Shown: positions 2,135 through 64,000 of the stretch, piece after piece
Layout: every line of letters starts with the position of its first letter
Position numbering within the stretch: the stretch's first letter is position 1
Assembly (NCBI GenBank): GCA_965200775.1
Contig: OZ241383.1
Location: forward strand, 1,141,008-1,205,007
DNA from: Acidimicrobiales bacterium
GTDB lineage: Bacteria; Actinomycetota; Acidimicrobiia; Acidimicrobiales; Bin134
DNA length: 64,000 nucleotides
Reading direction: 5' to 3'
The notes under the pieces: model-generated
Told to the model about the DNA's origin: nothing
The model's database searches: none
Seen by the model: the letters and a program-made list of their open reading frames with translations, nothing else
Made by a program: the position numbers and the translations under genes

Positions 2135-2932
2135 CTAGCCCGGTTCGTACCCGTATTCCACCACGAAATCGGTGCCGGGAAGTCCCGGAGTGACCAGGCC
2201 GGCTCGCCAGCCACCGTCCACGTTCAACTCGGCGCCGGTCACATACGACGCCTCGTCGCTGGCCAGGAACAGAGCTGCATAGGCGATCTCGATGGGCTCG
2301 CCGATTCGGGGGATGGCCTGGAAGACGTAGGGCTCCTTCTCCGCCCGTGGATCGTTAGTGGGGTTACCCATCGGGGTGTTCACCCCGCCTGGGTGGATGG
2401 AGTTGACCCGGATGTCGAACCGGCCCCATTCGATGGCTGCGGTCTTGGTCATTCCCCGGATGGCCCACTTCGACGCCGAGTAGCTGATGAGGCCGTTCTT
2501 GGACTGCATGCCGTCAATGGAGCTGATGTTCACGATCGAGCCCCCGCCGGTCATCTTCATCGGCTCCAGCACCGCCTTCATGCCCAGGAACGTGCCCACC
2601 TGGTTGACGTTGATGACCTTCATGTAGTCGTCGAGGGTGGTGTCCTCGATGGCGGCGGGCATGAGAATCGCCGCGTTGTTGACAAGAGCCTTCAGCGGCC
2701 CCATACCTGAGGCCACATCCACCGCCGCAGCCCAGTCATCTTCGCTGGACACATCGAGGTGTACGTATCGGGCCCCGTCGCCGATGCTTGCCGCAACCTG
2801 CTCGCCCTCATGGTCGAGAACGTCGCCCAGCACCACCTTGGCGCCCTCGGAGGCGAACAGCCGGGCCTCGGCTTCCCCCTGGCCCCGGGCTGCCCCGGTG
2901 ACTACCGCTACCTTGCCGTCCAGCCGTCCCAT
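2135..2932 (-). CDS. SDR family oxidoreductase
   Basis: The track ORF is 2135..2986. The preferred ATG at 2932 is preceded by GAAGGAGG (reverse complement of 2938-2949). Motifs: GKVAVVTGAARGQG Rossmann motif and YSASK catalytic motif. Confidence 0.9.
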   Translation of the reverse strand: MGRLDGKVAVVTGAARGQGEAEARLFASEGAKVVLGDVLDHEGEQVAASIGDGARYVHLDVSSEDDWAAAVDVASGMGPLKALVNNAAILMPAAIEDTTLDDYMKVINVNQVGTFLGMKAVLEPMKMTGGGSIVNISSIDGMQSKNGLISYSASKWAIRGMTKTAAIEWGRFDIRVNSIHPGGVNTPMGNPTNDPRAEKEPYVFQAIPRIGEPIEIAYAALFLASDEASYVTGAELNVDGGWRAGLVTPGLPGTDFVVEYGYEPG

Positions 2933-2995
2933 CGTTAGGTGCCTCCTTCGGGTCGGGCCTGTAACTGCCCGAAACCCTACCGACACGGATGACGA

Positions 2996-3895
2996 TTAGG
3001 CGAGGTCGTGCCGAAACAACCGAGGGTCATACGAGGCCCCGCAACGATCCAGGGCCGCCTTCCAAGCCGGGCTGTTCTTCATCACCCGCCGCAACGCCAG
3101 CGTCAACCCGAGGCAGCCTGTTCGTGTACCGGGCCGCGGGGTCAGCCCCAGCACCTCGTTCAGCTCCGGAGGAATGGTGGCCACAGCGCCGTTCATCAGC
3201 ACCCGGTAGCCGATCCGCTGCGCTGGTGGCATGGGGAATCGCCGGAGAAAGCCGACCGCGGCCCGCATACCCGGGCTGGGTTCTAGGTCGGGATGCGAGG
3301 TGATCCACGCTCGCAGGTCGGCCGCGGTGTCCGGCAGGGGCGACGCGCCCAGCATGGCCCCGATCCTCGACTGCTCGACCACGAACCGGTCGGCTTCGGC
3401 CTCCGAGAGGCGGCCTCCGTACCGCCGGTAGGCCTCCAGGAACGAATCGGTGAGCGTGTTGTGAACCCACGCCGAGTACTCGGCGGTGGACGCGCTGTAG
3501 GGCCGCCCCCGGTGCGAGGTCCCGCTGACTCCCTGGTGAGCGGTGTTGACCATCTCGACCGCCTCGTGGACTTCGGGCATCGCCCCGAAGGTTGCCGATG
3601 TCACGAAGAACGAGGTGCGGCTCAGCCGGCCCAGCGGATCGTCCCGGTAGCGGCTGTGGTCGTCCACGCCGGCCACCACCTCGGGATGAGCGGCCTGCAC
3701 GAACAGGGCTCGGATGCCGCCCACAAACACGCTCACATCGCCGATCACCCTCCAGCTCACCGAATCGGGGCCGCACAACCCAGGGTCGCCGGGGTAATCC
3801 CGGGTGTTGACCATCGGCCTCTCGGCGTGGGCGAACAAGCCGCTCACCGCGTCCACCACCTTGGCCCGAGCCGAATCGAACATCGCCCCCATCAT
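2996..3895 (-). CDS. DUF2236 / MpaB-type oxygenase family protein
   Basis: 299-aa ORF. Pattern PDSVSWRV...FVQAAHPEV...RDDPLGRL, recalled as DUF2236. Confidence 0.65.
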   Translation of the reverse strand: MMGAMFDSARAKVVDAVSGLFAHAERPMVNTRDYPGDPGLCGPDSVSWRVIGDVSVFVGGIRALFVQAAHPEVVAGVDDHSRYRDDPLGRLSRTSFFVTSATFGAMPEVHEAVEMVNTAHQGVSGTSHRGRPYSASTAEYSAWVHNTLTDSFLEAYRRYGGRLSEAEADRFVVEQSRIGAMLGASPLPDTAADLRAWITSHPDLEPSPGMRAAVGFLRRFPMPPAQRIGYRVLMNGAVATIPPELNEVLGLTPRPGTRTGCLGLTLALRRVMKNSPAWKAALDRCGASYDPRLFRHDLA

Positions 3896-5725: not shown

Positions 5726-6505
5726 ATGAGCTGGGAACCTGCCGGGAAGAGGGTGCTCGTCACCGGGGCGTCGTCGGGCATCGGCGCGGCCTTGGCGGTG
5801 GAGCTGGGCCGGGGTGGCGCGTTCGTGGGACTGGCTGCTCGCCGGACCGACCGCCTAGAACAGGTTCTGGCCGAGGTTCGCGAGGCTGGGGGCGACGGCT
5901 GCTGGTGGGAGCTGGACCTCACCGATCTCGACGGGGTGGCTGCCTTCGCCGAGCGGGCATGGGCAGACATGGGGCCGATCGACGTGGTGGTGAACAACGC
6001 TGGAGCCCCCCGCCGCCGGTCGGTCAAGGTGCTGACCCCCGAGGAGCTGGACGAAACCATGGCGGTGAACTTCACCGGCCCAGCCCGGCTCACCCTGGCC
6101 CTGCTCCCCCACCTGCTGGAACGGGGGTCGGGCCACATCGTGAACCTGTCGTCGATGGGAACCCAGTCGATGACCCTGGGAACCGGGGCCTACGGAGCGG
6201 CCAAGTCGGCGTTCAACATGTTCACCGAGGCCCTGTATCTGGACCTGGCCGGAACCGGGGTGCAGGCCCACCTGTTCATCCCCGGCTCCACGGCTACCGA
6301 GTTCTCCACGCCCAAACCGGGCAACGACCCCCCGTTCCCACAACCACCCGATGCGTTCATGGACCCGGTGGACGTGGCCCGAGCCATCGTCGCCAAGCTG
6401 GGCACCACCGATTTCGAGGGATTTGCCGCTCCCGCTCTCCAAAAGGTGGCAGAAGCCAAACGAGCCGACACCAACGGCTTCCTGGCTCAGATGCTCAGGC
6501 GCTAA
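5726..6505 (+). CDS. SDR family oxidoreductase
   Basis: 259-aa ORF. Motifs VTGASSGIG and YGAAK. Confidence 0.85.
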   Translation: MSWEPAGKRVLVTGASSGIGAALAVELGRGGAFVGLAARRTDRLEQVLAEVREAGGDGCWWELDLTDLDGVAAFAERAWADMGPIDVVVNNAGAPRRRSVKVLTPEELDETMAVNFTGPARLTLALLPHLLERGSGHIVNLSSMGTQSMTLGTGAYGAAKSAFNMFTEALYLDLAGTGVQAHLFIPGSTATEFSTPKPGNDPPFPQPPDAFMDPVDVARAIVAKLGTTDFEGFAAPALQKVAEAKRADTNGFLAQMLRR

Positions 6506-6598
6506 TCCATACCCGACACAGAAGGTTTCCTGGCTCAGATGCTCAGGCGCTAATCCATACTCGACACAAAAGGTTTCCTGGCTCAGATGCTCAGGCGG
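6467..6598. repeat. 48-nt tandem repeat x 2.75 that duplicates the last 13 codons and stop codon of the SDR gene
   Basis: Copies at 6467-6514, 6515-6562 and 6563-6598. Each full copy carries ttcctggctcagatgctcaggcgctaa (FLAQMLRR*). Confidence 0.95.
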
Positions 6599-6612
6599 TT
6601 ACCAAACAAGCG

Positions 6613-32492: not shown

Positions 32493-32595
32493 GCCAGACC
32501 CACCCCGCCCTGTTCGCTGAGCGGTCCGCGGCCGTACCCCCGGCTGTCTCCCTTCGAGGGGTTGGACCAAATCAGCGCGCTGCCGATGTCTTTTT

Positions 32596-33940
32596 GGTAG
32601 CTGGTTAACCTGGTTGTTCCGGTTATTGCAGTGAATATCCAAAGTTCTAGGTATTGTCTAGTGTTTGTCTGGAATTGCCAGTTTTTTCGGTTGATATTGT
32701 TACTGGGGTCGGTAGACTACATGGCATGGATTTAGGGCTCCTCACCAGGGACAACACCGAACCTCAGGCCACCGAGAGGTTTGGCGCTGCGCCGGCGGAT
32801 GATGGGTTGGGCGGGCTGGTTGATGTTGATCCGATGGAGTTGGATTCAGCAGAGGTAGCCAAGCTGATCTTGCAAGTCGACTCGACGCGTCGAAAGCTCG
32901 ACGGTTTGCTCACCGTGTTGTTGGGCCGGTTCGGTGACCTCGAAGGCGAAGACGCCGTTGTGGAGTTGTGCCGGCAGTTTGGTGTGGGTCGTCACAAAGC
33001 CCGCCGTCAAGCCAAAACCGCGTCAATCCTCAAAGACCTGCCCTACACGCTGGAGGCTTCAAAGGACGGGTGGATCACCATCGACCACGCCCAAGTAGTC
33101 GGCTAATCCCACCAAAGAGCCCCAATGGACGAAGACCAAGAACTTGAGCTCATCGGTTTGGCGATCACCGAGGACCTAGACCAGTTCAAAAAAACCGTCG
33201 CCCGCCTCGAAGAACAACGAGCCACAGCCGAAGGTCTCAGCCGCCACGAACAACAACGCCGGCGTCGCCGCGCATCAGTGCTCGACAGCGACAACGACAT
33301 GATCATCCTGCACGCGGAGCTGGACCGTGTCGCCGGGGAGCGAGTCAAAACCACCCTCAACGACTTGGACGATCGCATGTTCCGAGAAGACACCAAAACC
33401 AGAAACGACCGCACCCACCACCAACGCACCGCCGACGCCCTCGTAACGTTGATCACCCAAAAACCCGCCAAACCCGCCCAGACCGAAAAGTCTGAACCTC
33501 CCAGCAACGAGCCCGTAGCGCAGGCGACCACGCTGATCGTCACCGCCCACTACAACACCATCACCAACCGACCCCAACACGCAGGACTGATCGACGGCAC
33601 CCCCATCGACACCAACACCCTGCAGCGCATCGCCAGTGACGCAGCAGCGCTACCCACCATCTTCGACAACGACGACCAACCCCTCTACCTCAGCACCAAA
33701 CAACGATCAACCACCCAAGCCCAAAAACTCGCCTTATACGCCCAAGACAAACACTGCACCGGATGCGGACACAAAGCCACCACCTGCCACACCCACCACA
33801 ACCAATAGTGAGAACACAGCGAACCCACCGACATCACAAACCCCGCACTCCTCTGCCCCACCTGCCACAACAAAACCCACAAACACAACCACACCACCAC
33901 ACGGCACCCCAACAGCACCTACCAACTCAACCCGCCGTAG
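32596..33940. repeat. DUF222/HNH (REP13E12-like) repeat element, copy 1 (uninterrupted)
   Basis: Near-identical to 60051-60577 plus 63202-64000 (offsets 27,455 and 30,087 bp). The left boundary is accurate to about +/-1 nt. The right extent of identity is visible only to 33913 because the window ends. Confidence 0.9.
32654..33940 (+). pseudogene. DUF222 / HNH endonuclease family gene with three in-frame stops (TAA 33104, TAG 33806, TGA 33809)
   Basis: Track ORFs 32654..33106 and 33125..33808, plus the tail to 33940, share one frame. The tail reads ..CHTHHNQ**EHSEPTDITNPALLCPTCHNKTH, a broken HNH motif. The likely native start is ATG 32726 (MDLGLL). Confidence 0.8.
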
Positions 33941-35122: not shown

Positions 35123-36280
35123 GTGACCTTCGCTGCCGGGATAACCCTGGCCGACCTCGAAGCCGACCCCGACCCGATCCTGGCACGGCTTCGGGCTGAG
35201 GAGCCGGTGGCGTGGGTTCCGGCCATGGAGATGTGGCTGGTGACCCGCTGGGATGACGTGCTTCACATGGAGGAGCATCCCGAGCTGTTCACCGCGGCCA
35301 CCGAGCCGTCGTTCCTGGCTCGGACGCTGGGGCCGAACATGCTCACCTGCGATCCTCCCGAACACACCCGCCTCCAGGAGATCATGCAACCGCCGTTCCA
35401 GTCGGGTGGGCGCAGCGGGACCTTCGCCGCCGACGAGCTGAGTCCCCTGGCCGACCGCTTGCTCGACGCCGTTGACCCCGCCGGATTCGACATCATGGCC
35501 GAATATGCCCAGCCGCTGGCCTCCAGCTCCCTGGCCACGGTGCTGGGGCTCGACGGATACGGCATCGACCGGGTGTGGTCGTGGTGCGAGGGGCTTTGCA
35601 CCGACCTGGCAAACTTCGAGAACGACCCCGAACTGGCCGCCATCGGCCGGCAAGCCAAGACCGACCTCGGCGCCGCCCTGGCCGAACGGATTGCCTCGGC
35701 CGGTGACGACCACTCGGCCATCTCGTGGTTCGTTCGCAACGGCGCCAGCACCGAGGAAATCATCAACAACGTCCGGCTGATGATCTCGGGCGGGATCAAC
35801 GAGCCCCGTGACGGCATCGGACTGGTGGCCTGGGTGCTGCTGACCCGTCCCGACTTGCGCTCCCAGATAGACGACAACCTGTCGAGGTTGCGCCGCCTCA
35901 TCGAGGAGGTATTTCGGGTGTTCAGCCCGGTAGGGACCATTACCCGCCAGGCCACCCAAGACCTTGAGCTGGGCGGCGCGTCAATCGGTGCCGGGGATCT
36001 GGTGAGCGGTGTGCTGCGGTCGATCAACCTGGATGAATCCCGGTGGACCAACCCCACTGCCATCGACCTCGACCGCCGGGAAGGGGCTCACGGTGCTTTC
36101 GCTCTCGGCACCCACCGGTGCCTGGGCGAGTGGCTCGGCCGCCAAACGGTGCGTGTGGGCATCGAACGGCTGTTCGACCGCTTCCCCGGCCTCGCTCTCG
36201 ACACCGGTCACACGGTGGACATCCACGGTTTCGAGTTCCGCGGGCCCCGTTCGGTGCTCGTCCACGCCAACAAAACCTGA
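35123..36280 (+). CDS. Cytochrome P450
   Basis: 385 aa with GTG start. Heme-thiolate loop FALGTHRCLG and ExxR motif (EEVFR). Confidence 0.9.
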   Translation: MTFAAGITLADLEADPDPILARLRAEEPVAWVPAMEMWLVTRWDDVLHMEEHPELFTAATEPSFLARTLGPNMLTCDPPEHTRLQEIMQPPFQSGGRSGTFAADELSPLADRLLDAVDPAGFDIMAEYAQPLASSSLATVLGLDGYGIDRVWSWCEGLCTDLANFENDPELAAIGRQAKTDLGAALAERIASAGDDHSAISWFVRNGASTEEIINNVRLMISGGINEPRDGIGLVAWVLLTRPDLRSQIDDNLSRLRRLIEEVFRVFSPVGTITRQATQDLELGGASIGAGDLVSGVLRSINLDESRWTNPTAIDLDRREGAHGAFALGTHRCLGEWLGRQTVRVGIERLFDRFPGLALDTGHTVDIHGFEFRGPRSVLVHANKT

Positions 36281-36337
36281 GACTCTCAATCTCGGGTTCC
36301 GCGGCCCCCGTTCGGTGCTCGCTCATACCAACACCTG
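36233..36337. repeat. Diverged duplication of the P450 3' end, including the stop codon
   Basis: 36233-36280 encodes EFRGPRSVLVHANKT*. 36294-36337 would encode GFRGPRSVLAHTNT* in another frame. A 13-nt spacer separates them. Confidence 0.85.
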
Positions 36338-59128: not shown

Positions 59129-59301
59129 GTGCTTAGCGTCAAACAGCGGCCAGTGGGCTTAGGGATGTCGCAGGTGGGTTGAACACCCCGTGGGAACTCG
59201 CGATTTGCGTTGCATGGATAGTCCCACAGGGTTATCCTGGCTTGAATCCTCCCCGCCTGGCCTGCTAGCAGGGCATGGCGGGGGTTTATCGTTTCAGGCC
59301 C

Positions 59302-59934
59302 ATGTCCAAAACGCGAGTCGTCGTCTTCATCGACTACCAGAACGTCTACCACTCTGCGAGGGAGCTGTTCGGAGGGCCAGGGAGGGCCCATCCGTCCATC
59401 GGGAATGTGGACCCGTTGAAATACGGGCAGATGCTTTGCGACCTTGGCAAGGCAAAAGACCCCAACCGGGCCCTCCAGAGCGTACGCGTATACAGGGGTA
59501 GGCCGGTCCGCGGTGAAGGGCACGAGAAGGTTTGCTGAGCATTCGACCGTCAGGTCGCCAGATGGCGGAGAACCTCAGGCGTGGAACTGTTCACTCGACC
59601 ACTGAGGTACTACCCAGCCATAAGCGATACCGGGCAGCGCTACAGACGTGGTGAAGAGAAAGGCGTGGACGTGATGATGGCGTTGGACATCGTCGTCGAA
59701 GCGATCAAGGATGCATACGATGTCGCGATCGTGGCCACCGCTGATAGCGACTTACTTCCAGCAGTGGAACACCCCCTTGCTGCCAAGAAGCGCGTTGAAA
59801 CTGCTACATGGTGGGCTCGCAAATCACCCCGCGGCCAACTGAGAGTCCCGAGCCGCAAGATCTGGAACCACAACCTCGACAAGAGCAAATTCGACATTGT
59901 GCGAGACGACACCGATTACCTTGCTCTCCCCTGA
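59302..59934 (+). pseudogene. NYN (LabA/PIN-like) domain protein with an in-frame TGA at 59536-59538
   Basis: MSKTRVVVFIDYQNVY... continues in the same frame after the TGA (..EKVC*AFDRQVARW..RPLRYY..EKGVDVMMALD..ATADSDLLPAV). The track splits it into 59275..59538 and 59581..59934. Confidence 0.65.
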
Positions 59935-60018: not shown

Positions 60019-60050
60019 GCCAACAGCTGAGCGCCAGAGTTCACTCCTTC

Positions 60051-60577
60051 GGTAGTTGGTTAACCTGGTTGTTCCGGTTATTGCAGTGAATATCCAAAGT
60101 TCTAGGTATTGTCTAGTGTTTGTCTGGAATTGCCAGTTTTTTCGGTTGATATTGTTACTGGGGTCGGTAGACTACATGGCATGGATTTAGGGCTCCTCAC
60201 CAGGGACAACACCAATACTCAGGCCACCGAGAGGTTTGGCGCTGCGCCGGCGGATGATGGGTTGGGCGGGCTGGTTGATGTTGATCCGATGGAGTTGGAT
60301 TCAGCAGAGGTAGCCAAGCTGATCTTGCAAGTCGACTCGACGCGTCGAAAGCTCGACGGTTTGCTCACCGTGTTGTTGGGCCGGTTCGGTGACCTCGAAG
60401 GCGAAGACGCCGTTGTGGAGTTGTGCCGGCAGTTTGGGGTGGGCCGTCACAAAGCCCGCCGTCAAGCCAAAACCGCGTCAATCCTCAAAGACCTGCCCTA
60501 CACGCTGGAGGCTTCAAAGGACGGGTGGATCACCATCGACCACGCCCAAGTAGTCGGCTAATCCCACCAAAGAGCCC
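60051..60577. repeat. DUF222/HNH repeat element, copy 2, left arm
   Basis: Matches 32596-33122 with a handful of substitutions (for example gaacct versus aatact). It ends at the transposon target site. Confidence 0.9.
60109..60561 (+). pseudogene. DUF222/HNH gene copy 2, 5' part (same TAA stop as copy 1)
   Basis: The 150-aa ORF is identical to copy 1 except EP versus NT at residues 36-37. Confidence 0.8.
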
Positions 60578-60603
60578 GGGGCTTATATCGGATGGTGCCC
60601 AAG
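60578..60603. repeat. Terminal inverted repeat, left (ggggcttatatcggatggtgcccaag)
   Basis: Exact reverse complement of 63176-63201. Confidence 0.95.
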
Positions 60604-60608
60604 CACTC

Positions 60609-60731
60609 TCACTCACGGGTTCGCAGCACGGCATCCGCCAGCTCCTCGGGGGTGCAGTCAAAACGAAACACCTCATCAGGATCGTAAAGGTGCTCCAGCT
60701 CCGGCGGTATGGGATCTTCTTCTGGTGTCAT
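60609..60731 (-). CDS. Small acidic ORF (40 aa) inside the transposon
   Basis: ATG at 60731 preceded by GAAGGAGA. Sequence MTPEEDPIPPELEHLYDPDEVFRFDCTPEELADAVLRTRE. Below the ORF-track length cut-off. No recognised family. Confidence 0.35.
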   Translation of the reverse strand: MTPEEDPIPPELEHLYDPDEVFRFDCTPEELADAVLRTRE

Positions 60732-60742
60732 AGCCGTCTCCT

Positions 60743-62148
60743 TCATCGCATATGACCCAGTTTCGCATTCTGCCTACGCAGTCCTGTCAGCGTGTAGATA
60801 TTGCTTTTCAGCTTATTGCAAGGCCCGCACAACAGTATGCGGTTTGTGATGTGGTTCATGCCGCCTTCGGATCGGGGAATGTTGTGGTCCAACTCCAGAT
60901 AGCGGGGATCGTCGAACTCGCGGTCGCACCCCTGACACTTCTGGCCCTCCTGAGCAATGAGGTGGTTGTACATCTCAGCACGACTCCATTTAGGGCCTTC
61001 TGGCTCCTTCACACGTTCCTTGACGCGTAGGAACGGCGAGCCAACCTCGCCACCGTCGGTTCTAGCAGGAGGCTCAGTGGAGTATGTAACCTTTCCCAGT
61101 ATCCCAGTTATGTCCTTCAACCGATCTACTACCACATTATGAGCACCATCCCAAATGTCCGCTCCAACCCACGACCTTTCCAGCTTCTCGGCAGCCACAC
61201 AGGTCGTAGCACAACCAGCAAATGGGTCGAACACCACGCCACCCTTCAGTGTCCCCGTCTCGATGATTTGATAGTATAGGTTCAACGGCTTTTAGTGGGC
61301 CAGAGATATGGCTCTTTGGCCTTCTGTTTGGATCCCTTCTTCCGAATAGGGGTGAACTCGGTCCACCAGTCAGGTCCAGTCGTCCCCCTGTTCTCGTCAA
61401 GCCACACTTCGTTCAAATCATTCGGCACCGACTTGAGTCCTGCGAACACACCGGGATTAGTGTCCTTCAAGCGTTGATAGGTGATCTGTCCACTGGCATC
61501 AAAGTACGGCCCATACCGCTTCCTGGTTGACTGTGAGAGCGGTGCCATCGCCACTTCGCCTACGACACACGATTTGTTATCTTTCGCATACCACAGGATC
61601 AGGTCGTGGGTTCTCTTGTAGTAGTCGGTGTTCCTCCGTCCTGCCGGATCGGTGTAGCACCACACGATCTCGTTGCGGAAGTTTTTGTGCCCGAACACCG
61701 CATCCAGCGTGATCTTGAGATAGTGGCTGGCTGTGGGGTCGCAGTGCAGGAACAAATTGCCGGTGGACTTCAACAGCCGGTGCATCTCAATGATACGGAC
61801 AGCCATAAAACATATGTATGCTCCCATACTGTCCGAGTGTGCATAGCGGGCAGATTCGATGGCCTCAAGCAAATCCGGGTGGTCGTCTGCGATTTGGTCT
61901 ATCCAGTCGCTGTGGACATCATGCTCCCACGACCACCGATCTTGGAACTTTCCGCCAACCTCCAAACTATCGGGGGTGGCGTGGAAATCACGTCCCTTGT
62001 TGAACGGCGGATCGGTGGCGATCAGATCGAGCGTTTCGCTGTTCATACCGCGCATGACCGCCAGGTTGTCGTTGTGGAAAAGCGTGCGGTTCTCCCAATT
62101 CGGTTCGGCCATTATACTGCCAACTCCTCCATGCACCTTCTGGCCCAC
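60743..62148 (-). pseudogene. DNA methyltransferase (DPPF ... PTKS ... DPFAGCATT) fused to a C-terminal HNH nuclease domain, split by a 1-nt frame change at 61282-61285
   Basis: Track ORF 61282..62148 ends ..YLWPTKSR*. ORF 60743..61285 begins (L)NLYYQIIETGTLKGGVVFDPFAGCATT and ends with CQGCDREF..LELDHNIPRSEGG.NHITNRILLCGPCNKLK. The junction mRNA is AGC CGT TGA ACC. Confidence 0.75.
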
Positions 62149-63034
62149 ACCCCGTTCTCGATCAACTGCTCGTAGGTGAGCCTCTTGTGTTCCATACAGC
62201 GCACCATCCCGCCCATCTGGTCGACTGTGTCTTTCGGACGCTCGTTGTGGCGGTGCTCGAATTCTGCCACGTAGCGGTGCAGATGCTCTTCCGACATCTT
62301 GTGGTATGTCCCGTGGTATCCCCTCTTGAGCATGGCCCAGAAACTTTCCATCCCGTTGGTGTGGGCCATCTCGTCAACATACTGGCCCGTGGAGTGGCTC
62401 ACCGAGCGATGGCCGTAGCCCATGCGCGACAAGGGCAGGTAGCCCCTAGCCTCGTCCGTGAACACTGACGACCCCTTGTAGCGTGGTCGGCCACCATACC
62501 CGTCAATGTTCCTGCAGTGATGTCGGGCACCACGCGTGCAGCCACCCGCCCAGTCTCACGGTCCCTCACACCTGCCACAATAGCCTTCCCGACCGGACCG
62601 CCGGCGGCTGTCATCCTCTTATCGGCGTGCTTGTTGCGCTCCAAGCCGCCCACGTAGGTCTCGTCGGCCTCTAGCGTCGAGCTCATCAACGGATCCCCGC
62701 CCGCCATTGCCTCGCGTAGCCTGTGCAAGAGGAACCACGCGGCCTTCTGGCCGATACCCAGATCTCGGTGCAACTTCATAGACGACACCCCCTTCAGGCT
62801 GGTGGACACGATGTAGATCGCCAGCGCCCACGTCTGGTAGCCCAGGTTGGAGCACTCCATCACCGTCCCAGTCCGCACGCTGAACCGCCCGCGGCAGTCG
62901 CGGCACCGGAACGGCATCGTCCTATGCTTCGCACCTGATAGCACGTCCACGCTCCCACACTTGGGGCAGACCACCTTGTCAGGCCAGCGGCGCTTCACAA
63001 GCCACTTGTGGGCCTTCTCACCGGTCGGGAGCAT
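62112..63034 (-). pseudogene. IS1595-family transposase with a frameshift at a G4 run (about 62472-62479)
   Basis: N-terminal zinc-ribbon CPKCGS...CRDCRGRF and the start of the DDE domain (track 62399..63034). The rest (..VFTDEARGY..GYGHRSVSHS..HTNGMESFWAMLKRG..) lies in the -1 frame (track 62112..62465). Confidence 0.8.
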
Positions 63035-63175
63035 CCTAACGCCTGCACCAAGGTCATCCCGTCACGGTCTGCTCGGCCCGGCGCTTTCTTCTTCACTCTG
63101 TCCATTCCGACACACTACGGACAGCGAGTGACAGTTTATCTGTTTCGCCTAGTCAGACACAGTTTTCAATGTCAT

Positions 63176-63201
63176 CTTGGGCACCATCCGATATAAGCCC
63201 C
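63176..63201. repeat. Terminal inverted repeat, right (cttgggcaccatccgatataagcccc)
   Basis: Exact reverse complement of 60578-60603. Confidence 0.95.
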
Positions 63202-64000
63202 AAGAGCCCCAATGGACGAAGACCAAGAACTTGAGCTCATCGGTTTGGCGATCACCGAGGACCTAGACCAGTTCAAAAAAACCGTCGCCCGCCTCGAAGA
63301 ACAACGAGCCACAGCCGAAGGTCTCAGCCGCCACGAACAACAACGCCGGCGTCGCCGCGCATCAGTGCTCGACAGCGACAACGACATGATCATCCTGCAC
63401 GCGGAGCTGGACCGTGTCGCCGGGGAGCGAGTCAAAACCACCCTCAACGACTTGGACGATCGCATGTTCCGAGAAGACACCAAAACCAGAAACGACCGCA
63501 CCCACCACCAACGCACCGCCGACGCCCTCGTAACGTTGATCACCCAAAAACCCGCCAAACCCGCCCAGACCGAAAAGTCTGAACCTCCCAGCAACGAGCC
63601 CGTAGCGCAGGCGACCACGCTGATCGTCACCGCCCACTACAACACCATCACCAACCGACCCCAACACGCAGGACTGATCGACGGCACCCCCATCGACACC
63701 AACACCCTGCAGCGCATCGCCAGTGACGCAGCAGCGCTACCCACCATCTTCGACAACGACGACCAACCCCTCTACCTCAGCACCAAACAACGATCAACCA
63801 CCCAAGCCCAAAAACTCGCCTTATACGCCCAAGACAAACACTGCACCGGATGCGGACACAAAGCCACCACCTGCCACACCCACCACAACCAATAGTGAGA
63901 ACACAGCGAACCCACCGACATCACAAACCCCGCACTCCTCTGCCCCACCTGCCACAACAAAACCCACAAACACAACCACACCACCACACGGCACCCCAAC
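63202..64000. repeat. DUF222/HNH repeat element, copy 2, right arm (runs off the window)
   Basis: The encoded 227-aa ORF and the antisense ORFs are identical to those of copy 1 (33115-33913). Confidence 0.9.
63212..64000 (+). pseudogene. DUF222/HNH gene copy 2, 3' part (same TAG-TGA stops at 63893-63898)
   Basis: Identical translation to 33125..33808. The HNH tail continues to the window edge. Confidence 0.8.

What the first reader, a model, noticed from the sequence alone, without database searches (positions are those of the whole stretch)
32596..33940. Abrupt switch from GT-rich to AC-rich strand composition inside the DUF222 element, with stops explicable by G>A changes
Hand counts on the plus strand are:
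- 32641-32700: T27 G15 A11 C7
- 32821-32880: G19 T16 A15 C10
- 33421-33480: C29 A17 G9 T5
- 33841-33900: C33 A20 T4 G3

The switch is near 32995, inside one gene, so donor codon usage cannot explain it. All three stops lie in the G-poor half and can be derived from TGG by G>A alone. The HNH core reads HHNQ**EHSEPTD where the family has HH..W..GG.TD, and AGC GAA is GGC GGA after G>A.

The pattern matches C-deamination of the top strand on the left and of the bottom strand on the right. That geometry is expected for ssDNA exposed by bidirectional resection from a break, or for a strand-specific deaminase. Extensive deaminase-like hypermutation of a bacterial repeat would be unusual.
Basis: partly seen in the sequence, partly recalled or inferred. 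Interest (0 to 1): 0.7.

Follow-up and report, generated by a model that had tools for sequence, protein, structure and literature searches.

The report
One-strand-mutated, decayed DUF222–HNH repeat
A dead copy of a multi-copy DNA-damage-type nuclease repeat (DUF222–HNH, "13E12" family) has lost most G and T from the coding strand of its 3' two-thirds. The loss built up stepwise in the repeat lineage and stops at the repeat's ends, so it is not the scar of one local DNA break; intact relatives show a mild version of the same 5'-to-3' trend.

Summary
The composition switch is real. Keto skew goes from +0.35/+0.25 to −0.31 at about 32992 and reaches −0.62 at the element end; flanks are about −0.1.

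The element (32593–33940) is a DUF222–HNH pseudogene. It is present twice in the window and at a third locus in the same sample, so the bias predates these insertions.

Against seven intact homologues, the right part shows G>A 54 versus A>G 10 and T>C 21 versus C>T 3. G>C, A>C and C>A are also raised, and 86% of new bases are A or C. There is no dinucleotide context.

The left coding part shows no C>T excess. Its GT-richness, the T-rich leader and the position of the step are shared with intact homologues.

The first stop is GAA>TAA (G>T), not TGG>TAA.

Paralogues form a graded series of 0, 1, 6 and 10 G>A-type replacements.

Twelve of 12 intact family genes show a milder synonymous-site G/T-to-A/C decline.

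Best reading: recurrent, element-bound, strand-specific damage or error on the bottom strand of the 3' part. It is probably tied to copying or gene conversion of the repeat. A single break with bidirectional resection does not fit.

The parts
32593..33940 (+). Copy 1 of the repeated unit: a decayed DUF222-HNH (13E12-type) element of about 1.35 kb.
   Evidence: Homology with copy 2 and with L006 begins at about 32586-32596 and ends at about 33940, with different flanks. Pfam DUF222 matches at E=2e-18; HNH is no longer detectable. Homologues carry PF02720 plus PF01844.
32593..32725 (+). T-rich leader (T 40%, GC 42%, keto +0.35). It contains a degenerate RecA-NDp-like promoter, TTGTTACTGGGGTCGGTAGACT, at about 32698-32719, just upstream of the ATG.
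   Evidence: Intact L016/L017 have an equally T-rich leader (keto +0.28 to +0.30). The intact motif TGTCRNTG-N6-9-TANNNT is found in L005, L007-L010 and L022.
32726..32995 (+). 5' part of the pseudogene. It is GT-rich (keto +0.13 to +0.25) and is not hypermutated relative to homologues.
   Evidence: C>T 8 versus T>C 7 for 32726-33130. The protein is nearly identical to the intact P0001 here.
32992..32992 (.). Cumulative keto-skew maximum, which marks the switch point.
   Evidence: Intact L005, L007 and L017 peak at the homologous codon +-2 when all codon positions are used.
32996..33940 (+). AC-rich, strand-specifically hypermutated 3' domain. Keto skew falls from -0.3 to -0.62, and the G>A fraction per ancestral G rises from 0.11 to 0.30-0.35.
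   Evidence: Cochran-Armitage z=4.0, p=6e-5.
33104..33106 (+). In-frame TAA, derived from GAA (Glu) by G>T.
33806..33811 (+). TAG TGA replacing the conserved WW of the HNH core. The following GG has become SE.
33938..33940 (+). Terminal TAG at the right end of the repeated unit. Intact relatives read on for about 20 codons into flank-specific sequence.
60048..60577 (+). Copy 2, left part. It shows 6 differences from copy 1 in about 525 nt.
63207..64000 (+). Copy 2, right part. It is identical to copy 1 over 794 nt, including TAG TGA, and is cut by the window end.
60578..63198 (-). IS1595-like insertion that splits copy 2. It has 26-nt inverted repeats and an 8-bp target duplication (aagagccc), a frameshifted transposase, and an N6/N4 methylase with an HNH passenger.

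Best explanation
The locus is a dead copy of a multi-copy DUF222-HNH (13E12-type) repeat.

In this organism's lineage of the repeat, the 3' ~950 nt have been under a sustained, strand-specific substitution pressure. It removes G and T from the coding strand: mainly G>A, then G>C, T>C, C>A and A>C. Seen from the bottom strand these are C>T, C>G, A>G, G>T and T>G.

Shown:
- The bias accumulated stepwise in the element lineage.
- It travels with the element.
- It is bounded by the element ends.
- It continued in different copies after they separated.
- The GT-rich 5' part, the T-rich leader and the exact position of the step are largely inherited family features. A mild synonymous-site version of the 5'->3' gradient exists in all 12 intact family members tested.

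Inferred mechanism: when copies of the element are made or recombine, the bottom strand of the 3' part (and, more weakly, the top strand of the 5' end) is repeatedly single-stranded or newly synthesised. Candidate processes are gene conversion or homing-type break repair primed inward from the flanks. The family's DNA-damage-type promoter suggests this happens during the damage response, when error-prone synthesis is expected. Deamination, oxidation or misincorporation then becomes fixed on one strand only.

The mutated, nuclease-dead copies then spread further. An intact paralogue such as P0001 may supply the nuclease in trans.
For: - Element-bound and predating insertion: copy 2 in the window is identical over 794 nt of the right part. 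L006, from the same sample as L018 (which is this very locus), is ~95% identical by BLAST (94.7%) and shares TAG TGA, with different flanks. Skew jumps from -0.08 to +0.35 at the left end and from -0.62 to -0.03 at the right end.
- Direction: G>A 54:10, T>C 21:3, G>C 26:9. G>T is 1 and T>G is 0. Of all new bases, 86% are A or C.
- Against P0001: G>A 22, A>G 1, C>T 1.
- Gradient: it rises towards the 3' end.
- Stepwise history: G>A-type replacements in residues 126-284 number P0001 0, P0002/P0123 1, P0121 4 shared plus 2 of its own, window 10. After the split, the window has 7-9 and L006 has 4-5 further G>A, with only 1 C>T on the right.
- Lineage-specific: paralogue pairs in other genomes are strand-symmetric.
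- Family-wide mild gradient at synonymous sites: 12/12 genes, MWU p=7e-5. Stratified by amino acid it is again 12/12, against controls at 0.008+-0.115, p=1.5e-4.
- Gene conversion among copies: P0001 is closer to the window than L006 in the left part and much further in the right. The window copies differ 6/525 on the left versus 0/794 on the right.
- Literature: REP13E12 loci are top gene-conversion hotspots in M. tuberculosis (PMC13061034). 13E12 genes are DNA-damage induced and carry RecA_NDp or LexA sites (PMC3381160). The motif is conserved upstream of homologues here.
Against: - No DNA of the intact paralogue P0001 or of three further copies could be obtained, so synonymous changes in the last steps are unpolarised.
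- The two window copies show no new change in 794 nt, so any per-copying dose is small and many rounds would be needed.
- Divergence between L006 and the window is the same on the left and the right (about 3.5-3.8%). The recent signal is therefore a spectrum bias, not a rate increase.
- The mobility mechanism of DUF222-HNH elements is unknown. No terminal inverted repeats or target duplications were identified.
- Which strand is damaged (bottom C/A, or top G/T) cannot be told from sequence.
- Other lineages of the family show no recent asymmetry, so something host- or lineage-specific must be added.
- The shared deletion in P0002/P0121 that the window lacks shows a reticulate history, which weakens any simple 'nested' reading.
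Confidence: 0.45

Rival explanations
1. An ssDNA-specific cytosine deaminase (an APOBEC-like, SsdA or BaDTF-type toxin, or a defence enzyme) edited a single-stranded intermediate of the element.
For: G>A is the largest class and is extremely one-sided in the last evolutionary steps: 22:1 against P0001, and 54 versus 3 C>T. The bias is confined to a mobile repeat, as with APOBEC-edited retroelements.
Against: - There is no dinucleotide preference. The G>A fraction is 0.22 for GA, 0.34 for GC, 0.28 for GG and 0.21 for GT.
- T>C, G>C, A>C and C>A are also directional.
- Accumulation is graded across paralogues rather than one burst.
- No CDA-fold zinc motif occurs in any frame of the 64-kb window. 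This is weak evidence, since the window is only about 2% of a roughly 3 Mb genome, if the 3.14-Mb contig of P0001 is its source (inferred).
Confidence: 0.15
2. In situ transcription-associated mutagenesis. Sense transcription from the damage-inducible promoter exposes the top strand at the 5' end. An antisense transcript entering or starting at the 3' end exposes the bottom strand. The result would be convergent transcription with each effect fading inward.
For: - It explains the bipolar sign, the maxima at the ends, the sharp element boundaries if both promoters are internal, the presence in intact genes, and continued accumulation in dead copies.
- A conserved strong promoter motif sits at the 5' end.
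- In copy 1 and in L006 the downstream gene is transcribed towards the element.
Against: - No antisense promoter motif was found at the 3' end.
- The downstream gene orientation is not consistent across homologues.
- The ADH gene that would feed read-through is itself unskewed.
- Known transcriptional asymmetries are a few-fold, not above 20-fold (established knowledge).
- The promoter of the window copies is degenerate.
Confidence: 0.12
3. One double-strand break near 32995 at this locus, followed by bidirectional 5'->3' resection and deamination of the exposed tails.
For: The polarity is right: the top strand is hit on the left and the bottom strand on the right. The four newest C>T changes lie at 32935-32989 and the newest G>A changes start at 32998.
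Against: - The same mutated sequence occurs at two other loci.
- The skew stops at the element ends, even in the non-coding left flank.
- The skew is weakest at the centre and strongest at the ends.
- The left coding half has no C>T excess.
- Intact homologues place the step at the same codon.
- One of the four C>T changes is private to copy 1, so more than one event is needed.
Confidence: 0.03
4. There was no special mutagenesis. The composition is inherited or selected (a family trait plus amino-acid content), or the right part was imported by recombination from an unsampled AC-rich relative.
For: Intact homologues show the same sign change and the same step position. The copies have a mosaic history.
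Against: - The magnitude is 2-3 times that of any homologue.
- Substitutions polarised against both the outgroups and the in-genome intact paralogue are overwhelmingly G>A/T>C and destroy conserved catalytic residues.
- Import from another lineage only moves the question elsewhere.
Confidence: 0.08

Closest known systems
13E12 / REP13E12 repeat family (DUF222 + HNH) of Actinomycetota
   Same: - Same domain family (PF02720, with PF01844 in intact paralogues).
- Unit of about 1.3-1.4 kb in several copies per genome.
- RecA-NDp-like damage promoter directly upstream.
- Frequent gene conversion between copies.
(PMC3381160; PMC13061034)
   Different: No strand-asymmetric hypermutation or 5'->3' synonymous-site gradient was found described for this family in the held literature. 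The copies here are nuclease-dead yet multiplied.
Strand-coordinated mutation clusters (kataegis) at resected breaks or break-induced replication in yeast and cancers (own knowledge: Roberts et al. 2012; Sakofsky et al. 2014)
   Same: Long runs of changes hit one strand. The polarity can switch from C-type to G-type along a tract. The cause is long-lived ssDNA made during break repair.
   Different: Those clusters are single events, made by APOBEC with a TC context or by alkylation. They are densest near the break and are not bounded by a repeat. Here the pattern is cumulative, context-free, multi-class, bounded by the element and strongest at its ends.
Vertebrate mitochondrial strand asymmetry: H-strand single-strandedness gradients (own knowledge: Reyes 1998; Faith & Pollock 2003)
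   Same: One strand becomes A+C-rich and very G-poor through C>T and A>G on the partner strand. The gradient is set by time spent single-stranded. The pressure is sustained rather than a burst.
   Different: That is a property of a whole replicon's replication mode. Here it applies to 1 kb of a chromosomal repeat, and transversions are biased as well.
G>A hypermutated retroelements and retroviruses (APOBEC3 editing or dNTP-pool-biased reverse transcription; own knowledge)
   Same: Dead, G>A-rich copies of a mobile element are fixed in a genome. A gradient runs along the element. Biased-pool reverse transcription gives G>A plus U>C.
   Different: No reverse transcriptase or RNA intermediate is known for DUF222-HNH elements, and there is no editing context.
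Fungal repeat-induced point mutation (RIP)
   Same: Transition mutations are confined to repeated DNA and generate stops.
   Different: RIP hits each copy independently and both strands overall, and it prefers CpA. Here the copies share the changes, one strand is hit, and there is no context.

Membership tests
DUF222-HNH (13E12 repeat) family | DUF222 domain (PF02720) | tested here: met
   E=2e-18 over residues 78-341 of the conceptual translation. Homologues are 54-84% identical with PF02720.
DUF222-HNH (13E12 repeat) family | C-terminal HNH nuclease domain (PF01844) with the HH..WW..GG.TD..N..CH..H core | tested here: not met
   There is no PF01844 hit at E<=0.001. The core reads HHNQ**EHSEPTD. 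It is met in the paralogue P0001. The window copies are therefore decayed members by descent.
DUF222-HNH (13E12 repeat) family | Dispersed multi-copy unit with defined ends | tested here: met
   Two copies in the window, plus L006 and the proteins P0001, P0002, P0122 and P0123 from one 3.14-Mb contig. The same 3' end is seen in the paralogues L016/L017.
DUF222-HNH (13E12 repeat) family | DNA-damage-type promoter (RecA-NDp / LexA) upstream | tested here: inconclusive
   The motif is present in L005, L007-L010 and L022. In the window copies it is altered by two C>T changes and no longer matches. Regulation itself was not tested.
Enzymatic cytosine-deaminase hypermutation (APOBEC/AID/DddA/SsdA-like) | Changes essentially restricted to C>T / G>A | tested here: not met
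   T>C 21:3, G>C 26:9, A>C 17 and C>A 20 are also directional.
Enzymatic cytosine-deaminase hypermutation (APOBEC/AID/DddA/SsdA-like) | Preferred neighbouring base (TC, CC, WRC, etc.) | tested here: not met
   The G>A fraction is 0.21-0.34 for all four 3' neighbours.
Enzymatic cytosine-deaminase hypermutation (APOBEC/AID/DddA/SsdA-like) | Strand-coordinated runs | tested here: met
   On the right, G>A is 54/191 versus C>T 3/221, p=7e-17.
Enzymatic cytosine-deaminase hypermutation (APOBEC/AID/DddA/SsdA-like) | A DNA deaminase encoded in or delivered to the cell | not testable with these tools
   No CDA zinc motif occurs in the 64-kb window. The rest of the genome could not be fetched.
Break with bidirectional resection (switching C-/G-coordinated cluster) | Polarity switch with top-strand C changes on the left and bottom-strand C changes on the right | tested here: inconclusive
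   This holds for the 13 most recent polarised changes. It does not hold for the bulk of the left half.
Break with bidirectional resection (switching C-/G-coordinated cluster) | Density highest at the break, fading outward and running into the flanks | tested here: not met
   The skew is weakest near 32995, strongest at 32593-32725 and 33746-33940, and absent in the flanks.
Repeat-induced point mutation (RIP-like) | Independent mutation of each repeat copy, with a CpA preference | tested here: not met
   Copies share the changes, with 0 differences in 794 nt. No context is seen.

The most novel reading that the evidence does not exclude
DUF222-HNH (13E12) repeats may carry a built-in, polar strand asymmetry: G/T-rich at the 5' end and A/C-rich towards the 3' end at synonymous sites. 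The proposed cause is that every round of copying or gene conversion is primed inward from the flanks and leaves one strand single-stranded or error-prone. The skew would then be a readable footprint of an unknown mobility or recombination mechanism. In this Acidimicrobiia genome it would have run away, producing nuclease-dead, G-depleted copies that still spread.
Probability: 0.3. Interest if true: 0.75.

Novelty: new variant of a known kind. Interest (0 to 1): 0.55.

Why it matters
13E12/DUF222-HNH repeats are widespread in Actinomycetota, including M. tuberculosis. They are induced by DNA damage and are gene-conversion hotspots, yet how they are copied is unknown.

A strand asymmetry that is bounded by the element, polar along it, and present mildly in all 12 intact members tested points to a directional single-strand or nascent-strand step in their life cycle. 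That gives a concrete, testable handle: which strand is involved, from which end, and under which repair deficiency.

It would also be a rare bacterial example of a chromosomal repeat degraded by one-strand hypermutation. This resembles edited retroelements or break-associated mutation clusters in eukaryotes.

If instead it reflects a host-specific deaminase or repair defect, the element would be a neutral reporter of that activity.

Tried and rejected
- **Source genome DNA.** I could not fetch the DNA of the intact paralogue P0001 or of the other copies (P0002, P0122, P0123), nor the 227-aa window ORF. The exact-product look-ups found nothing.
- **Collection scans.** The single genome-contig scan returned only 25-40% relatives. 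The viral-contig scan returned nothing. The metagenome scan gave four useful homologues.
- **Dinucleotide context of G>A and T>C.** No preference was found.
- **Deaminase in the window.** A regex for the H/C-[AVS]-E...PC..C zinc motif in six frames found nothing.
- **Antisense promoter or RecA-NDp motif at the 3' end.** None was found.
- **Inverted repeats.** None of 40 nt or more was found within the element, either between the GT-rich and AC-rich halves or at its ends.
- **Known RNA families and tRNAs.** None occurs in the window.
- **Amino-acid composition as the cause of the family gradient.** Rejected: the gradient persists within each of the eight four-fold codon families.
- **General 5'->3' trend in any gene.** Rejected: 25-34 control ORFs of the window centre on zero.
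- **Sequencing artefact.** Rejected: an independent assembly of the same locus (L018) is 99.96% identical, and the reading frame is kept without indels.
- **Literature.** I found nothing on strand-biased hypermutation of bacterial repeats, RIP-like processes in prokaryotes, or a DUF222 mobility mechanism.
Full report
**1.

| Segment | Keto skew (G+T−A−C)/N |
|---|---|
| Left flank | −0.08 |
| 32593–32725 | +0.35 |
| 32876–32995 | +0.25 |
| 32996–33145 | −0.31 |
| 33746–33940 | −0.62 |
| Next 150 nt of flank | −0.03 |

The cumulative maximum is at 32992. In 300-nt windows the right part lies 4–7 robust SD from the window median. The only other such outlier in 64 kb is 63300–64000.

**2. What the thing is**

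The frame 32726–33940 is collinear with DUF222–HNH proteins. Homologues are 54–60% identical, carry PF02720 plus PF01844, and come mostly from Acidimicrobiia.

The window translation still matches DUF222 (E=2e-18). It no longer matches HNH.

In-frame stops are TAA at 33104, TAG TGA at 33806–33811, and TAG at 33938.

The second outlier is a second copy of the same unit.
- Its left part is 60048–60577 and its right part is 63207–64000, cut by the window end.
- It is split by a 2.6-kb IS1595-like insertion with 26-nt inverted repeats and an 8-bp target duplication.

A third copy, L006, was recovered from an ENA assembly.
- It is ~95% identical (94.7% by BLAST) over the whole unit, has unrelated flanks, and carries the same TAG TGA.
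- The same sample yields L018, which is this very locus at 99.96% identity. L006 is therefore most likely another paralogue of the same organism (inference).

One 3.14-Mb contig encodes an intact 422-aa paralogue, P0001, at 84% identity. It also encodes three truncated ones: P0002, P0122 and P0123.

The repeated unit runs from about 32590 to 33940. Paralogues in another genome (L016/L017) end at the homologous 3' position and also include a leader of about 110 nt.

**3. Polarising the substitutions**

I obtained DNA for seven intact homologues: L004, L005, L007, L008, L009, L016 and L017. I threaded codons onto a protein alignment.

I used sites where at least 4 of 5 outgroups agree. The counts for the right two-thirds (33131–33940) are below.

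| Class | Count | Reverse class | Count |
|---|---|---|---|
| G>A | 54 | A>G | 10 |
| T>C | 21 | C>T | 3 |
| G>C | 26 | C>G | 9 |
| A>C | 17 | T>G | 0 |
| C>A | 20 | G>T | 1 |

- 86% of all new bases are A or C.
- G>A per ancestral G against C>T per ancestral C gives p=7e-17.
- The G>A fraction per ancestral G rises along the gene: 0.09, 0.11, 0.19, 0.30, 0.35, 0.33. The trend gives z=4.0.

The left coding part (32726–33130) has C>T 8 and T>C 7, so there is no excess there.

Against the intact paralogue P0001, using codon parsimony on replacements only, the region right of 33000 has 22 unambiguous G>A. It has 1 A>G, 1 C>T and 5 T>C.
- WW>TAG TGA and GG>SE are G>A changes.
- The first stop is GAA>TAA. 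It is E in every homologue and GAA in L006.

G>A shows no neighbour preference.

**4. It is not a single local event**

- The mutated sequence is shared by three loci, so most changes predate these insertions.
- The skew stops at the element ends, including the non-coding left flank.
- Paralogues form a graded series over residues 126–284. G>A-type replacements number 0 in P0001, 1 in P0002/P0123, 4 shared plus 2 private in P0121, and 10 in the window copies.
- After the window lineage and L006 separated, the window gained 7–9 further G>A and L006 gained 4–5, all right of 32995. There is a single C>T on that side.
- The window lineage's new C>T changes lie at 32935, 32961, 32980 and 32989, the last only in copy 1. 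Fisher p=0.007.
- The process is therefore recurrent, and in the newest changes its polarity does flip near 32995.
- The history is reticulate. P0001 is nearer to the window than L006 on the left and far more distant on the right.
- P0002 and P0121 share a 1-nt deletion that the window lacks.
- The two window copies differ at 6/525 positions on the left and 0/794 on the right, p=0.004.
- This fits the report that REP13E12 loci are among the strongest gene-conversion hotspots in M. tuberculosis (PMC13061034).

**5. How much is inherited**

- Intact homologues show the same sign change, more weakly.
- Twelve intact genes were tested: Acidimicrobiia, three distant relatives, and plasmid-borne genes of Tsukamurella, Microbacterium and Mycobacterium.
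- At four-fold sites, the first-minus-last-third keto difference is positive in 12/12. The mean is 0.36, against 0.05±0.20 in 34 control ORFs of the window, p=7e-5.
- Stratified by amino acid it is again 12/12. All eight codon families decline, and controls are 0.008±0.115, p=1.5e-4.
- The step at 32992 coincides with the cumulative maximum of intact L005, L007 and L017 when all codon positions are used. It does not coincide at third positions.
- The abruptness is therefore largely written in the conserved protein sequence: G/V/L/F-rich followed by K/A/Q/T-rich.
- A T-rich leader also exists in intact L016/L017.
- Recent polarised changes between paralogues in other genomes are strand-symmetric, for example G>A 19 versus C>T 22. 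The extreme asymmetry is thus specific to this lineage.

**6. Context**

A motif TGTCRNTG-N6-9-TANNNT lies about 6 nt upstream of the start codon in L005, L007–L010 and the Mycobacterium plasmid gene L022.
- It matches the RecA-NDp promoter through which PafBC drives the mycobacterial DNA-damage response (PMC6789036).
- That promoter is reported for 13E12 genes (PMC3381160).
- In the window copies it carries two C>T changes and no longer matches.

The neighbours of copy 1 are two zinc-type alcohol dehydrogenases of normal composition. No deaminase-type zinc motif, Rfam family or tRNA occurs in the window.

**7. Mechanism**

Shown: a cumulative, element-bound, strand-specific pressure on the 3' ~950 nt. 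G>A leads, every class points towards A/C on the top strand, and there is no context.

Seen from the bottom strand, the enriched classes are C>T, A>G, G>T, C>G and T>G. These are what deamination and oxidation of single-stranded DNA would give. They are also what G/T misincorporation into a nascent strand would give (inference from established chemistry).

Three features fit synthesis or exposure that starts at the element ends and proceeds inward.
- The signal is maximal at the outer ends.
- It is bounded by the ends.
- The strand affected at each end is the one whose 5' end lies there.

Processes of that kind include two-ended gap repair or homing, converging forks of replicative transposition, and conversion tracts. 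A central break with outward resection does not fit.

The damage-type promoter and the family's conversion activity make copying during the damage response plausible (inference).

Weak points:
- The per-copy dose must be small, since the two window copies show 0 changes in 794 nt.
- The recent left and right divergence rates are equal.
- The mobility mechanism is unknown.
- An additional lineage- or host-specific factor is required.

Rivals are an ssDNA deaminase, convergent transcription, a single local break, and pure inheritance or import. They are weighed in the rival-explanations section of this report.

**8. Verdict**

- The right half is genuinely hypermutated on one strand.
- The left half and the switch position are mostly family traits.
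- One stop was misassigned.
- The event is a lineage property of a multi-copy repeat rather than a scar at this locus.
- I found no description of such a pattern for bacterial repeats or for this family.

Noticed in passing
window 60578-63198: An IS1595-like element is inserted in copy 2 of the repeat. It has perfect 26-nt inverted repeats (ggggcttatatcggatggtgcccaag) and an 8-bp target duplication, aagagccc. Its transposase is split into two ORFs. It also carries a split N6/N4 DNA methylase whose C-terminal piece is fused to an HNH domain.
   Followed up: partly
L005:1390-1410, L007/L008/L009/L010:1474-1494, L022:714-735; window 32698-32719 (degenerate): A RecA-NDp/PafBC-like promoter motif (TGTCRNTG-N6-9-TANNNT) lies about 6 nt upstream of the start codon of DUF222-HNH genes, in both Acidimicrobiia and a Mycobacterium plasmid. 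This implies leaderless, damage-inducible expression across the phylum (PMC3381160, PMC6789036).
   Followed up: partly
12 loci: L001, L002, L004, L005, L007, L009, L011, L016, L019-L022: All intact DUF222-HNH genes tested show a decline from G/T-ending to C/A-ending codons from the first to the last third. It holds within every four-fold codon family and is not seen in control genes.
   Followed up: yes
L016:~2790-3050: The last ~26 nt of the element (ACAAACTCAAACCCCCGGCCACGGGG) recur about 60 nt downstream of its end, followed by a second ~45-nt direct repeat. This may be a remnant of a target or of an earlier copy.
   Followed up: no
window 59275-59934: The NYN-domain gene upstream of copy 2 is split into two ORFs. 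A paralogue of it elsewhere in the genome is interrupted by another copy of the repeat, shown by the read-through product P0123.
   Followed up: no
window 6465-6608: Three tandem copies of a 48-nt unit, 77-100% identical.
   Followed up: no
window 36231-36333: A 42-nt direct repeat (86% identity, spacing 61 nt) sits at the 3' end of the P450-like ORF. It duplicates the FRGPRSVL..H..N.. C-terminus.
   Followed up: no
window 32759-32810 and homologous positions in paralogues: The N-terminal ~30 residues are hypervariable among the paralogues (TNSHVTKQHDVAP / TEPQTAEQLGAAS / TEPQATERFGAAP). In copy 2 a 3-change cluster at 32759-32762 looks like a short conversion tract.
   Followed up: partly
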